Of a stretch of DNA of 64,000 bases, positions 9,113 to 12,100 are shown piece after piece. A program made the position numbers. The stretch lies in the NCBI RefSeq assembly GCF_056712565.1, contig NZ_CM160072.1. One strand, 5' to 3'. Positions within the stretch are counted from its first letter, which is position 1; every line of letters begins with the position of its first letter.

Positions 9113-12100
9113 GTCATCCTCTCAGACCAGCTAGGGATCGTCGCCTAGGTGAGCCGTTACCCCACCTACTAGCTAATCCCATCTGGGCACATCCGATGGC
9201 AAGAGGCCCTAAGGTCCCCCTCTTTGGTCTTGCGACGTTATGCGGTATTAGCTACCGTTTCCAGTAGTTATCCCCCTCCATCAGGCAGTTTCCCAGACAT
9301 TACTCACCCGTCCGCCACTCGTCAGCAAAGCAGCAAGCTGCTTCCTGTTACCGTTCGACTTGCATGTGTTAGGCCTGCCGCCAGCGTTCAATCTGAGCCA
9401 TGATCAAACTCTTCAATTTAAAAGTTTGATGCTCAAAGAATTAAACTTCGTAATGAATTACGTGTTCACTCCTGAGACTTGGTATTCATTTTTCGTCTTG
9501 CGACGTTAAGAATCCGTATCTTCGAGTGCCCACACAGATTGTCTGATAAATTGTTAAAGAGCAGTTGCGACGCGGCTTTCAGCTCACTGTCGCGAGGTGG
9601 CGTATATTACGCTTTCCTCTTTCAGAGTCAACCCTGAACTTCAGGATTTTTTCTCTTTGTTGTTACGACCATCTTGTGAAGTGTTTCACGTTGTCGTCTC
9701 AACGGAGGCGCATTATAGGGATCCCAATTTTTTGCACAAGTACTTTTTTGATCTTTTTTTCTGTTTGTTGCTTTTTCACCCTTTTTGCTGCATTCGCACA
9801 CAAAACGGTGCTTTTTTGCATGCTAAAAGACTTGCACAAGGCCAATAATGCACCCAAAGTCATTAGTAAATCATTTATTGTTGAGGTGAGTATGTCTGAT
9901 GTTTTACGCCCATACCGCGATCTTTTTCCACAAATCGGTCAGCGCGTAATGATCGACGATAGCAGCGTCGTGATTGGTGACGTTCGTTTGGCTGATGATG
10001 TGGGGATCTGGCCGCTCGTTGTGATTCGTGGAGATGTACATTATGTACAGATCGGAGCACGCACCAATATCCAGGATGGCAGTATGTTGCATGTCACTCA
10101 TAAATCCTCGTACAACCCAGATGGCAACCCATTAACCATTGGCGAAGATGTCACTGTTGGTCACAAGGTGATGCTCCACGGCTGCACCATTGGCAATCGA
10201 GTTTTGGTTGGGATGGGCTCAATTTTACTTGATGGCGCAATAGTAGAAGATGATGTGATGATTGGTGCGGGTAGCCTGGTCCCACAAAATAAACGGCTGG
10301 AGAGCGGATATCTGTATCTCGGTAGCCCCGTCAAACAGATCCGCCCGTTAAGTGATGAAGAGAAGGCTGGGTTACGCTATTCCGCAAATAACTACGTGAA
10401 ATGGAAGGACGAATATCTGGATCAAGGTAACCAGACCCAACCTTGATCATCTTCACTTTGTTCCTGAATTAAGTTTTCCGCTTCTTCTTCCAGGTCCCAG
10501 CGATGCTGACGAAAACTCGCTAACCACTGTTCTGGCGTATCTCCAGTAAAGCGATACGCCAGACTCTCGCCAGAGATCGCACATGTCAGTTGCATACCAT
10601 TCACGAGAGCGGGAAAACATACACATCTTTTATTCTCGTCCCACTCTTCCCTATCCGGAAACTGGATGGCCTGATTCACGCTGACAATTCCTGTTGCAAT
10701 AGTTTGATGACCGGTTCTACATCAGGCAGAACGCCATGCCAAAGAAGGAAGGCATGAGCCGCCTGTGCCACCAGCATTCCTAAACCATCAGCATTACGCT
10801 TTGAGCCTCGCTGCTCACACCATGCCAGAAAAGGAGTTTTTCCTTTCTGATAGAACATGTCATAGCAATAAATGCCTGGATGAATGAGCGATGACGGGAT
10901 CGCCGGAATATCACCACTGATGCCACTGGATGTTGCATTAATAATGAGATCAAACTCATGACCTTCCAGTTCGTCCATACCCAACGCCTGAATACTGCCA
11001 GTGTGCGCAAACAATTTAGTCAACTCTTCTGCGCGAGATACCGTCCGATTAGTGATTGTCACCGCACAGTCCAGGGAAAGGAGTGGCAGTAGTACGCCGC
11101 GAGATGCTCCACCAGCGCCAATGAGCAGAATACGTAAACCAGGACGGATAAAAGACAGACGTTCCAGATCGCTTAACAAACCTATACCATCGGTATTGTC
11201 ACCCAGCAGGCGTCCATCTTCTAACCGCTTGAGGGTATTAACAGCACCAGCCAACGCTGCCCGTTCAGTAAGCTCATCCGCTCTGGCAAAAGCCTCTTCT
11301 TTAAAAGGTACCGTCACATTCGCACCTTTACCACCAGCACTAAAGAAAGCGTTCAGTGTGTTGATGAAATCATTGATGGGTGCCAACACGCGTCCATAGG
11401 GATGTTCAATATTCAGTTGCTGAGCAAATTGCTGATGAATGAATGGCGATTTGCTGTGGGCTATCGGATTACCAAAAACAGCATAGGTTTCCATTATGTT
11501 ACCCCTGTCGAAACAGTTCACCCGTCAGGGCATCGCGGATTTCTGAAGGATTTAAACGCCCCCCCGTTTCACCAGGCACAACCGGGAACGCCGCGCCAAA
11601 TTGTGCGCGAACTTCGTCTACTGTTCGACAAGGTGGCAATCCACTCAAGTTGGCACTGGTAGAAACCAGCGGTTTACCATAAGCCTGGCACAAAGCAACC
11701 ACCAACGGATGGTCGGTGACTCGTACAGCAAGCGAATCAAAGCGGCCCGTCAACCAGCGCGGTGTTGTCGCAGGCGCGGGAAAAACAAAGGTGACAGGAC
11801 CTGGCCAGCGAGAAAATATAGTTTCACGCTGCGCGTCAGTCAGCATGGTGTCATCAATATAGGGTTTAAGCTGCTCGTAATTTGCGGCGATTAGAATCAG
11901 CCCCTTATCAACCGGACGCTGTTTTAACTCCAACAGTCGCATCACTGCTGTTTCGCTATCAGGATCGCACCCGACACCGAAAACGGCTTCCGTTGGATAG
12001 GCGATGACACGTTCTTCATTGAGGACATCTATCGCAGCTGCGATAGCGTCTCCTTGCAGGTTATTATTCACGTTATTATTCCGCCGAAATCGGCTTTCCA

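What the first reader, a model, noticed from the sequence alone, without database searches (positions are those of the whole stretch)
10422..10446. Tail-to-tail 25-nt coding overlap between yrdA and yrdB
The 3' end of yrdA (+) and the 3' end of yrdB (-) share 25 nt with no room for terminators between them, which implies convergent transcription through each other's coding ends. yrdB then abuts aroE with a 4-nt overlap.
Basis: seen in the sequence. Interest (0 to 1): 0.15.

Follow-up and report, generated by a model that had tools for sequence, protein, structure and literature searches.

The report
Conserved yrdA–yrdB tail-to-tail gene overlap
Two real E. coli genes on opposite strands share their last 25 bases, an arrangement that is already annotated, conserved across enteric bacteria and known to give overlapping transcripts ended by Rho factor, so it is genuine but ordinary.

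Summary
yrdA (+, 9892-10446) and yrdB (-, 10679-10422) share 10422-10446, which is 25 nt. yrdB starts in a GTGA overlap with the aroE stop. RefSeq annotates E. coli genomes the same way.

Both genes are real. YrdA has crystal structures (3TIO/3TIS) that run to the same C-terminus. YrdB matches Pfam DUF1488 end to end and is 85 aa across genera.

The 25-nt overlap is kept in 75 of 80 Enterobacteriaceae species. Variation sits at the shared third codon positions. Outgroups keep the same junction with -11 to +25 nt of overlap, nearly all in the same phase. This points to in-frame stop-codon shifts. YrdB's structured C-terminal strand (G-W-V-W-L) appears to drive the sequence, and YrdA's post-helix tail is its antisense shadow.

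There is no terminator between the genes.
- yrdA-yrdB is listed as a convergent excludon.
- Rho-dependent termination regions lie on both strands.
- The yrdA mRNA 3' end maps to window 10568, 5 nt after an 11-bp hairpin inside yrdB.

The overlap is also a perfect 9-bp palindrome, but it shows no covariation. It is a by-product of the mirrored TGA stops.

Verdict: supported, already known, low interest.

The parts
9892..10446 (+). yrdA CDS (184 aa, gamma-carbonic-anhydrase-like hexapeptide-repeat protein); stop TGA at 10444-10446
   Evidence: Hexapep, E = 2e-19; RefSeq annotation; PDB 3TIO/3TIS, same C-terminus ...LDQGNQTQP.
10422..10679 (-). yrdB CDS (85 aa, DUF1488); GTG start at 10679, stop TGA = reverse complement of 10422-10424
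   Evidence: PF07369, E = 1.5e-33, full profile; 85 aa in nearly all homologues; 2GPI; AF2 pLDDT 91, strand 81-84.
10422..10446 (.). 25-nt tail-to-tail coding overlap, phase (123:213), in which the third codon positions of both genes coincide
   Evidence: Conserved in 75 of 80 species. Entropy is concentrated at 10425, 10428, 10434, 10440 and 10443.
10420..10448 (.). Perfect inverted repeat GATCAAGGT / ACCTTGATC with an 11-nt loop. Both stop codons and two Dam GATC sites lie in the arms, and both proteins read D-Q-G across an arm.
   Evidence: I3; -10.4 / -10.8 kcal/mol. No covariation beyond shuffles (74.7% against 74.9%). Perfect only in this lineage; K-12 has G at 10425 and 10440.
10676..10679 (-). 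GTGA: aroE stop overlapping the yrdB start (translational coupling), with an AGGAGGAA Shine-Dalgarno-like motif upstream
   Evidence: ATGA in 49 loci and GTGA in 31, of 81.
10676..11494 (-). aroE CDS (shikimate dehydrogenase), upstream member of the operon that ends in yrdB
10531..10563 (+). 11-bp perfect stem-loop (TCTGGCGTATC ... GATACGCCAGA) inside the yrdB CDS, read in the yrdA-sense RNA. The published yrdA-strand RNA 3' end lies 5 nt downstream, at 10568.
   Evidence: I1; 68.0% paired against 64.4 +/- 0.8 in shuffles, 0 of 500; slid controls 29-40%. Term-seq 3' end at MG1655 3429912 = window 10568.
10447..10828 (+). Untranslated yrdA read-through RNA, antisense to yrdB and to the 3' end of aroE. 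It is C-rich and G-poor. The peak of the Rho-dependent termination region is at about 10828.
   Evidence: C 0.30-0.33, G 0.15-0.21. (MG1655 3430172 +, Rho score 5.0, p = 2e-11).
10100..10572 (-). aroE-yrdB transcript running through the end of yrdB into antisense yrdA. The peak coordinate of the Rho termination region is 10572. The RNA after the yrdB stop is C-rich and G-poor.
   Evidence: MG1655 3429916 -, Rho score 2.5, p = 1.8e-7. (C 0.29-0.33, G 0.14-0.25 down to about 10220).

Best explanation
This is a genuine, ancient tail-to-tail overlap of two real genes. It was created and resized by in-frame movement of stop codons. It is now locked in place because the shared bases encode YrdB's structured C-terminal beta-strand.

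Shown:
- The aroE-yrdB operon on one strand and yrdA on the other have abutted with essentially no spacer since before the split between the enteric bacteria and Vibrio.
- In Enterobacteriaceae the yrdA frame runs four codons further than in Edaphovirga (CAG where Edaphovirga has TAG), which gives 25 shared bases.
- YrdA's tail pattern Q-x-[NS]-[QH]-x-[QH]-P is what the antisense of YrdB's G-W-x-W-L-[PS]-stop dictates.

Inferred:
- The YrdA tail is a passenger with little function of its own.

How transcription ends. No terminator fits between the genes, so each RNA polymerase reads through the partner's coding end. After the ribosome leaves at the stop codon, the C-rich, G-poor untranslated antisense RNA is a substrate for Rho, which ends transcription some hundreds of bases further on in both directions. 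Bicyclomycin sensitivity on both strands is shown in published data; the exact release points are inferred. The yrdA mRNA is then left with a 3' end 5 nt after a stable hairpin that lies inside the yrdB coding sequence. The position is shown. That it arises by exonuclease trimming is inferred from the Dar and Sorek 2018 model.

The mature RNAs are therefore complementary over at least about 150 nt. Any regulatory consequence of that complementarity is unproven.
For: Anatomy and annotation.

Both genes are real.

Conservation of the 25-nt overlap and its exceptions (40, 19 and 25 nt with TAA).

Variation is confined to the shared third codon positions.

Outgroups (named):
- Rouxiella, 25 nt
- Edaphovirga, 13 nt
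- Leminorella, Vibrio and Enterovibrio, 4 nt
- Ferrimonas, 1-nt gap
- Plesiomonas, 11-nt gap

All overlap lengths except Ferrimonas equal 1 modulo 3, so the phase is constant and the stops moved without indels.

Asymmetry of constraint:
- In YrdB, G80 is nearly invariant across a 60-member family alignment, and strand 81-84 has pLDDT of about 94.
- In YrdA, conservation stops at Y175/L176.
- Most PDB homologues align only to about residue 170-176 of YrdA.
- The YrdA model has a helix at 155-177 followed by coil.

No terminator-like site lies near the junction.

The RNA downstream of both stops is C-rich and G-poor.

Published data: the excludon list, and the Term-seq 3' end and Rho regions.
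Against: - The Rho regions were called with 800-nt windows, so the termination points are imprecise. The - strand signal is modest (score 2.5).
- The + strand 3' end appears in only one of the three growth conditions, at a low read count (about 1000).
- The YrdA AlphaFold model is weak overall (mean pLDDT 61), so the 'floppy tail' rests mainly on the conservation pattern.
- I could not check whether residues 178-184 are ordered in 3TIO/3TIS.
- Strong conservation of an exact 25-nt overlap would also be expected if the overlap itself were selected.
Confidence: 0.75

Rival explanations
1. The 9-bp palindrome that spans both stop codons is a compact bidirectional terminator or RNA-polymerase collision site of the kind described by Ju et al. 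2019 and Wang et al. 2022. The nascent stem-loop would define where converging polymerases stop.
For: A perfect 9-bp inverted repeat lies exactly at the junction, with -10.4 / -10.8 kcal/mol on the two strands. A 5-7-bp core (TCAGG/CCTGA, often GATCAGG/CCTGATC) is present in most species. Perfect inverted repeats of at least 9 nt are rare under a Markov null (3.8 expected per 64 kb). A stem-loop is reported to be needed for positioned collisions (bioRxiv 10.1101/2022.10.23.513370).
Against: - There is no covariation. Pairing equals the shuffle expectation on the + strand (74.7% against 74.9%) and exceeds it only marginally on the - strand (81.8% against 80.8%, reached by 73 of 1000 shuffles).
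- Three of the conserved pairs are forced by the two mirrored TGA stops, and the GG/CC pairs by codons.
- The stem has no flanking A or U tracts, and the terminator scan is negative.
- The curated Term-seq tables show no 3' end on either strand at the junction. The + strand RNA ends 122 nt further on, and read-through is Rho-sensitive.
- K-12, where those data were taken, has two wobble or mismatch positions in the stem.
Confidence: 0.08
2. The arrangement is a selected excludon. Transcription or RNA of yrdA represses yrdB (and perhaps aroE), and the reverse, through polymerase collision or RNase III cleavage of the duplex of at least 150 bp. Selection for this regulation, rather than mere constraint, would then be why the zero-spacer junction has been kept since the Vibrio/enteric ancestor.
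For: yrdA-yrdB is in the core E. coli excludome. Transcripts overlap by at least 147 nt (10422-10568) according to the Term-seq 3' end. The zero-spacer convergent synteny is conserved across Enterobacterales, Vibrionales and Ferrimonas. The hairpin at the yrdA 3' end shows some covariation.
Against: - No reciprocal expression data were found for this pair.
- The p19 capture study of RNase III products reports a dsRNA cluster in the 5' part of yrdA (from an internal antisense promoter) but none for yrdB or the tail overlap. Its stored tables are truncated, however.
- Mutating that internal antisense promoter did not change yrdA::lacZ.
- With overlapping CDSs, listing as an excludon is automatic and says nothing about function.
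- The hairpin signal is small (3.6 percentage points), equal on both strands and absent in Salmonella.
Confidence: 0.15
3. The overlap is an annotation artefact: yrdB, or its extent, is a mis-call, and only yrdA is coding here.
For: YrdB has no known function. Its start is a GTG, and it is small (85 aa).
Against: - Full-length DUF1488 match.
- 158 family representatives at 50% clustering.
- A solved homologue and a confident fold.
- Codon-position pattern of variation.
- A conserved ATGA/GTGA coupling to aroE with a Shine-Dalgarno-like motif.
- An invariant stop position.
Confidence: 0.02

Closest known systems
Convergent (tail-to-tail) overlapping gene pairs of prokaryotes, explained by the stop-codon-mutation model (Lillo & Krakauer 2007, PMC2174442; Huvet & Stumpf 2014, PMC4161906)
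   Same: Two protein-coding genes on opposite strands share their 3' ends. The overlap length changes between taxa by in-frame gain or loss of stop codons. It is one of about 75 such pairs counted in E. coli.
   Different: It is in phase (123:213), the least common convergent phase (18% overall, 22% in E. coli). It is unusually stable: the same 25 nt occur in 75 of 80 Enterobacteriaceae species.
Convergent excludons (ExcludonFinder, PMC12288877)
   Same: Neighbouring convergent genes whose transcripts overlap. This very pair is listed for MG1655.
   Different: Classic excludons overlap through long UTRs and show reciprocal expression and RNase III dependence. Here the overlap starts in the CDSs themselves, and no reciprocal regulation has been shown.
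Rho-dependent termination of untranslated or antisense RNA, with 3' ends trimmed back to a protective hairpin (Dar & Sorek 2018, PMC6061677; Adams et al. 2021, PMC7815308)
   Same: Bicyclomycin-sensitive read-through on both strands. C-rich, G-poor RNA after each stop. The mapped 3' end lies 5 nt after an 11-bp stem that has no U-tract.
   Different: The protective hairpin and the whole 3' UTR of yrdA lie inside the partner gene's coding sequence. They are therefore constrained by YrdB's protein sequence.
Bidirectional intrinsic terminators between convergent genes (Ju et al. 2019; Wang et al. 2022, bioRxiv 10.1101/2022.10.23.513370)
   Same: A symmetric stem-loop sits between, and here across, the ends of convergent genes.
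   Different: It has no A or U tracts and a weak stem with 4 of 9 G-C pairs. No mapped 3' ends lie at it, and it shows no covariation. It does not qualify as a member.

Membership tests
Convergent overlapping gene pair | Both partners are genuine protein-coding genes | tested here: met
   YrdA: Hexapep domains, PDB 3TIO/3TIS. YrdB: DUF1488 full-length match, PDB homologue 2GPI, AF2 pLDDT 91.
Convergent overlapping gene pair | The coding sequences on opposite strands share nucleotides at their 3' ends | tested here: met
   10422-10446, 25 nt. Same in RefSeq.
Convergent overlapping gene pair | The overlap is conserved in orthologues, so it is not a strain-specific accident | tested here: met
   75 of 80 species have 25 nt. 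Others have 19 or 40 nt. Outgroups range from -11 to 25 nt.
Convergent excludon | Transcripts of the two genes overlap in vivo | not testable with these tools
   Taken from the literature: listed in the MG1655 excludome. Term-seq 3' end of the yrdA strand inside yrdB.
Convergent excludon | Mutually exclusive expression and/or RNase III processing of the duplex | not testable with these tools
   No data were found for this pair. The p19 dsRNA tables (truncated as stored) list a cluster in the 5' part of yrdA but none at the tail overlap.
Bidirectional intrinsic terminator | G+C-rich stem-loop flanked by an A-tract upstream and a U-tract downstream | tested here: not met
   The stem is GATCAAGGT/ACCTTGATC with 4 of 9 G-C pairs. 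Its flanks are ...TATCTG and ATCTTCAC. The terminator scan found nothing at 10300-10700.
Bidirectional intrinsic terminator | RNA 3' ends of both strands map at the stem-loop | not testable with these tools
   From the literature: the two Term-seq sheets I read list no 3' end there on either strand. The yrdA-strand end is at 10568.
Bidirectional intrinsic terminator | Structure maintained by compensatory changes | tested here: not met
   74.7% paired against 74.9% in shuffles; covariation score 0.116 against 0.118.
Rho-dependent terminator region | Read-through increases when Rho is inhibited | not testable with these tools
   From the literature: Rho score 5.0 (+ strand, window about 10828) and 2.5 (- strand, window about 10572), with p = 2e-11 and 1.8e-7.
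Rho-dependent terminator region | Untranslated, C-rich and G-poor RNA downstream of the stop | tested here: met
   C 0.29-0.33 against G 0.14-0.25 for at least 200 nt after both stops.
Translationally coupled operon junction (aroE-yrdB) | The stop of the upstream gene overlaps the start of the downstream gene, and a ribosome-binding motif lies in the upstream gene | tested here: met
   GTGA at 10679-10676. ATGA or GTGA in 80 of 81 loci. AGGAGGAA / AGGAA lies 11-14 nt upstream.

The most novel reading that the evidence does not exclude
The zero-spacer convergent junction has been kept from Ferrimonas and Vibrio to E. coli. It may be a selected regulatory device rather than a frozen accident. 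Expression of the gamma-carbonic-anhydrase-like YrdA and of the distal part of the aroE-yrdB operon would then be inversely coupled. The coupling would act through polymerase collision and the RNA duplex of at least 150 bp. The hairpin embedded in yrdB would set the yrdA 3' end, and Rho on antisense yrdA would insulate the downstream rrnD promoters.
Probability: 0.1. Interest if true: 0.35.

Novelty: already known. Interest (0 to 1): 0.1.

Why it matters
It matters little beyond good annotation. The overlap is in the reference annotation, and its transcriptional consequence is already catalogued in published RNA-seq, Term-seq and bicyclomycin data.

What this analysis adds is a clean worked example of three things:
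- How a convergent overlap grows by in-frame stop shifts.
- How one partner's structured C-terminus dictates the other's tail sequence.
- Why a striking palindrome at mirrored stop codons need not be an RNA structure.

If the pair were shown to regulate each other, it would be one more excludon, linking an uncharacterised DUF1488 protein and YrdA.

Tried and rejected
1. The overlap palindrome as a conserved RNA structure. Rejected after the per-species pairing and energy analysis and the formal pair counts.

2. Strand specificity of the yrdB-internal hairpin. The G·U pattern first suggested the yrdA-sense RNA. Shuffle tests give the same small excess on both strands, and median folding energies do not favour the + strand. 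No strand can be assigned from sequence alone.

3. Known RNA families at the junction. None were found. The only hits in 9300-11600 are the 16S end, a sub-threshold Ysr197 hit in the rrn leader and a chance snoRNA hit.

4. Intrinsic terminators. The four predicted sites in 9400-12800 are no more than the shuffle expectation of 3.1, and none is at the junction.

5. Supplementary tables. Those of Dar & Sorek 2018 and of ExcludonFinder are not held as text. The SEnd-seq tables of Ju et al. 2019 could not be reached.

6. RNase III evidence. The p19 capture tables list no cluster in the tail overlap, but the stored files are truncated.

7. The YrdA AlphaFold model from a shallow alignment came out weak (pLDDT 61). 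It is used only as weak support.
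Full report
**What is there**

The window is an E. coli chromosome segment: rrnD (- strand), yrdA (+), then yrdB-aroE-tsaC-yrdD-smg-dprA (-). 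The 1.8 kb around the finding is present in 5,424 of 5,426 complete E. coli genomes. It is 100% identical to strain CUVET20-PYO2 apart from a 97-bp insertion there.

- yrdA runs from ATG 9892 to TGA 10444-10446.
- yrdB runs from GTG 10679 to a TGA that is the reverse complement of 10422-10424.
- aroE ends at 10676.

The two CDSs therefore share 10422-10446 (25 nt). yrdB starts in a GTGA overlap with the aroE stop. RefSeq annotates exactly these overlaps in three genomes, including MG1655 (yrdA 3429236-3429790, yrdB 3429766-3430023).

**Are both genes real, and is the yrdB stop right?**

YrdA has hexapeptide repeats. It was crystallised as 3TIO/3TIS with the same C-terminus...LDQGNQTQP.

YrdB evidence:
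- It matches Pfam DUF1488 at E = 1.5e-33, over residues 5-84 of 85 and the whole profile.
- Homologues across Enterobacteriaceae are almost all 85 aa.
- A Shewanella-like homologue has been solved as 2GPI.
- An AlphaFold model from a 60-member alignment has mean pLDDT 91, with a C-terminal strand at residues 81-84.

**Conservation**

One genome per species was scanned with YrdB, which returned 80 loci. In 75 of them the two stops are 25 nt apart, as here. Two loci have 40 nt and two have 19 nt. One has a disrupted yrdA, and one uses TAA at the same place.

In an ungapped comparison of 82 sequences, the yrdB stop (TCA on the + strand) is invariant and the yrdA TGA is present in 79. Inside the overlap, variation is concentrated at 10425, 10428, 10434, 10440 and 10443. 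These are the third codon positions of both genes at once. This is phase (123:213) in the notation of Lillo & Krakauer. It is the least frequent convergent phase: 18% overall and 22% in E. coli. Huvet & Stumpf count 75 convergent overlapping pairs in E. coli.

**Deeper history**

Representatives of more distant YrdB clusters were located on contigs and named from cluster members. The order aroE-yrdB facing yrdA is kept in every one, and the junction is always tight.

| Taxon | Overlap |
|---|---|
| Rouxiella | 25 nt |
| Edaphovirga | 13 nt |
| Leminorella, Vibrio fortis, Enterovibrio | 4 nt (TTAA / CTAA type) |
| Ferrimonas | 1-nt gap |
| Plesiomonas | 11-nt gap |

Every value except Ferrimonas equals 1 modulo 3, so the phase has stayed constant and the stops moved without indels. 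Edaphovirga has AAA TAG where Enterobacteriaceae have AAC CAG. A single stop/sense difference therefore accounts for four extra YrdA codons. It coincides with Tyr versus Trp in YrdB on the other strand.

**Which gene owns the shared bases?**

- In YrdB, G80 is nearly invariant across the family, and it is followed by an alternating hydrophobic strand that the model predicts with high confidence.
- In YrdA, conservation ends at Y175/L176.
- Most solved homologues align only to about residue 170-176 of YrdA.
- The YrdA model is weak (pLDDT 61). It shows a helix at 155-177 followed by coil, with pLDDT below 50 for residues 180-184.
- The YrdA tail consensus Q-x-[NS]-[QH]-x-[QH]-P is exactly what the antisense of YrdB's G-W-x-W-L-[PS]-stop imposes: TGG gives CCA, which forces CAN codons, and GGN gives NCC, which forces CCN.

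I infer that the YrdA tail is a passenger extension.

**The palindrome**

The overlap is a perfect inverted repeat, GATCAAGGT (10420-10428) / ACCTTGATC (10440-10448), with an 11-nt loop. It folds at -10.4 and -10.8 kcal/mol on the two strands. Both stops and two GATC sites lie in the arms.

Such repeats are rare under a Markov null: 22 were observed in the window against 3.8 expected, and most of those observed lie in rRNA, tRNA and terminators. However:
- Three of the pairs are forced, because a TGA on each strand in this symmetric phase is self-complementary. The GG/CC pairs come from codons.
- Across 77 sequences, pairing equals the shuffle expectation (74.7% against 74.9%; covariation 0.116 against 0.118).
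- K-12 carries G at 10425 and 10440, which are doubly synonymous sites, and this weakens the stem.

I conclude that the palindrome is a by-product and not a selected structure.

**How transcription ends**

No terminator-like site lies near the junction. Coordinates convert as window = MG1655 - 3419344, verified by sequence.

- ExcludonFinder lists yrdA-yrdB among 165 convergent excludons found in at least 50% of 58 transcriptomes.
- Adams et al. 2021 report a curated Term-seq 3' end at 3429912 (+), antisense to yrdB. This is window 10568, 122 nt past the yrdA stop.
- The same paper reports Rho termination regions from direct RNA-seq with and without bicyclomycin. One is at 3430172 (+), window about 10828, antisense to aroE (score 5.0, p = 2e-11). 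The other is at 3429916 (-), window about 10572, internal to yrdB (score 2.5, p = 1.8e-7).
- In the two Term-seq sheets I could read, no - strand 3' end is listed between the yrdB stop and 3428984.
- The RNA after each stop is C-rich and G-poor, as expected for Rho loading.

The 10568 end lies 5 nt after an 11-bp perfect stem, 10531-10541 / 10553-10563, with no U-tract. This fits trimming back to a protective hairpin.

That stem shows a small excess of pairing and compensatory changes over shuffles (68.0% against 64.4 +/- 0.8, 0 of 500; slid controls 29-40%). The excess is the same on both strands, and the stem is absent in Salmonella. I therefore treat it as weak-to-moderate evidence of selection.

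**Other checks**

- The aroE/yrdB stop-start overlap is conserved: ATGA in 49 loci and GTGA in 31, of 81, with a Shine-Dalgarno-like motif upstream.
- No Rfam family matches the junction.
- A p19 capture study of RNase III products lists a dsRNA cluster in the 5' part of yrdA. It comes from the internal antisense promoter described by Dornenburg et al. Mutating that promoter did not change yrdA::lacZ. The study lists nothing at the tail overlap, though its stored tables are truncated.

**Verdict**

The feature is a long-annotated, conserved convergent overlap whose transcriptional read-through and Rho-dependent termination are already in the literature. The most novel reading still open is that the zero-spacer junction is a selected excludon. 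It has no direct support.

Noticed in passing
window 10531-10568 (+): An 11-bp perfect inverted repeat lies inside the yrdB coding sequence. The published MG1655 Term-seq 3' end of the yrdA-strand RNA maps 5 nt after it. The stem shows a small covariation excess across Enterobacteriaceae, but the excess is equal on both strands and the stem is absent in Salmonella.
   Followed up: yes
window 10040-10045 (- strand -10 hexamer CATAAT), TSS about 10033; dsRNA about 9984-10022: There is an internal antisense promoter in yrdA, described by Dornenburg et al. 2010. Mutating it did not change yrdA::lacZ. A p19-captured cluster of RNase III products maps just downstream of it.
   Followed up: partly
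window 9604-9645 (-): An abundant - strand Term-seq 3' end (MG1655 3428984, seen in all three conditions) maps at a small hairpin, CCTGAAGTTCAGG. The hairpin lies immediately upstream of the rrnD P2 promoter (TTGACT ... TAATAT). Its origin was not examined; it could be read-through from the aroE operon or a product of P1.
   Followed up: no
window 9541-9782 (-): A sub-threshold Rfam match to Ysr197, a Yersinia sRNA (86 bits against a gathering score of 167, E = 3e-20), covers the rrn promoter and leader region. That family may be derived from an rRNA leader.
   Followed up: no
L001 4696-4796 (between aroE and tsaC; window equivalent 11495-11498): Strain CUVET20-PYO2 is identical to the window over 9800-11600 except for a 97-bp insertion between aroE and tsaC. 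RefSeq annotates this insertion as a 40-aa hypothetical protein.
   Followed up: no
loci L004-L082 (contig ends): Most draft-genome contigs stop 0.75-1.2 kb beyond yrdB, and many are about 26 kb long. This is consistent with an rRNA operon next to yrdA being conserved across Enterobacteriaceae, so the - strand read-through heads towards rrn promoters.
   Followed up: no
window 10420-10423 and 10445-10448: Two Dam GATC sites 25 bp apart bracket the overlap, one in each arm of the palindrome. Both are present in Escherichia and many genera, but they are not universal.
   Followed up: partly
L088 2711-2767 versus L087: A metagenomic Vibrio variant has a 1-nt insertion near the end of yrdA. It shifts the frame and lengthens the called overlap from 4 to 57 nt. 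This shows how easily such junctions change in gene calls.
   Followed up: no
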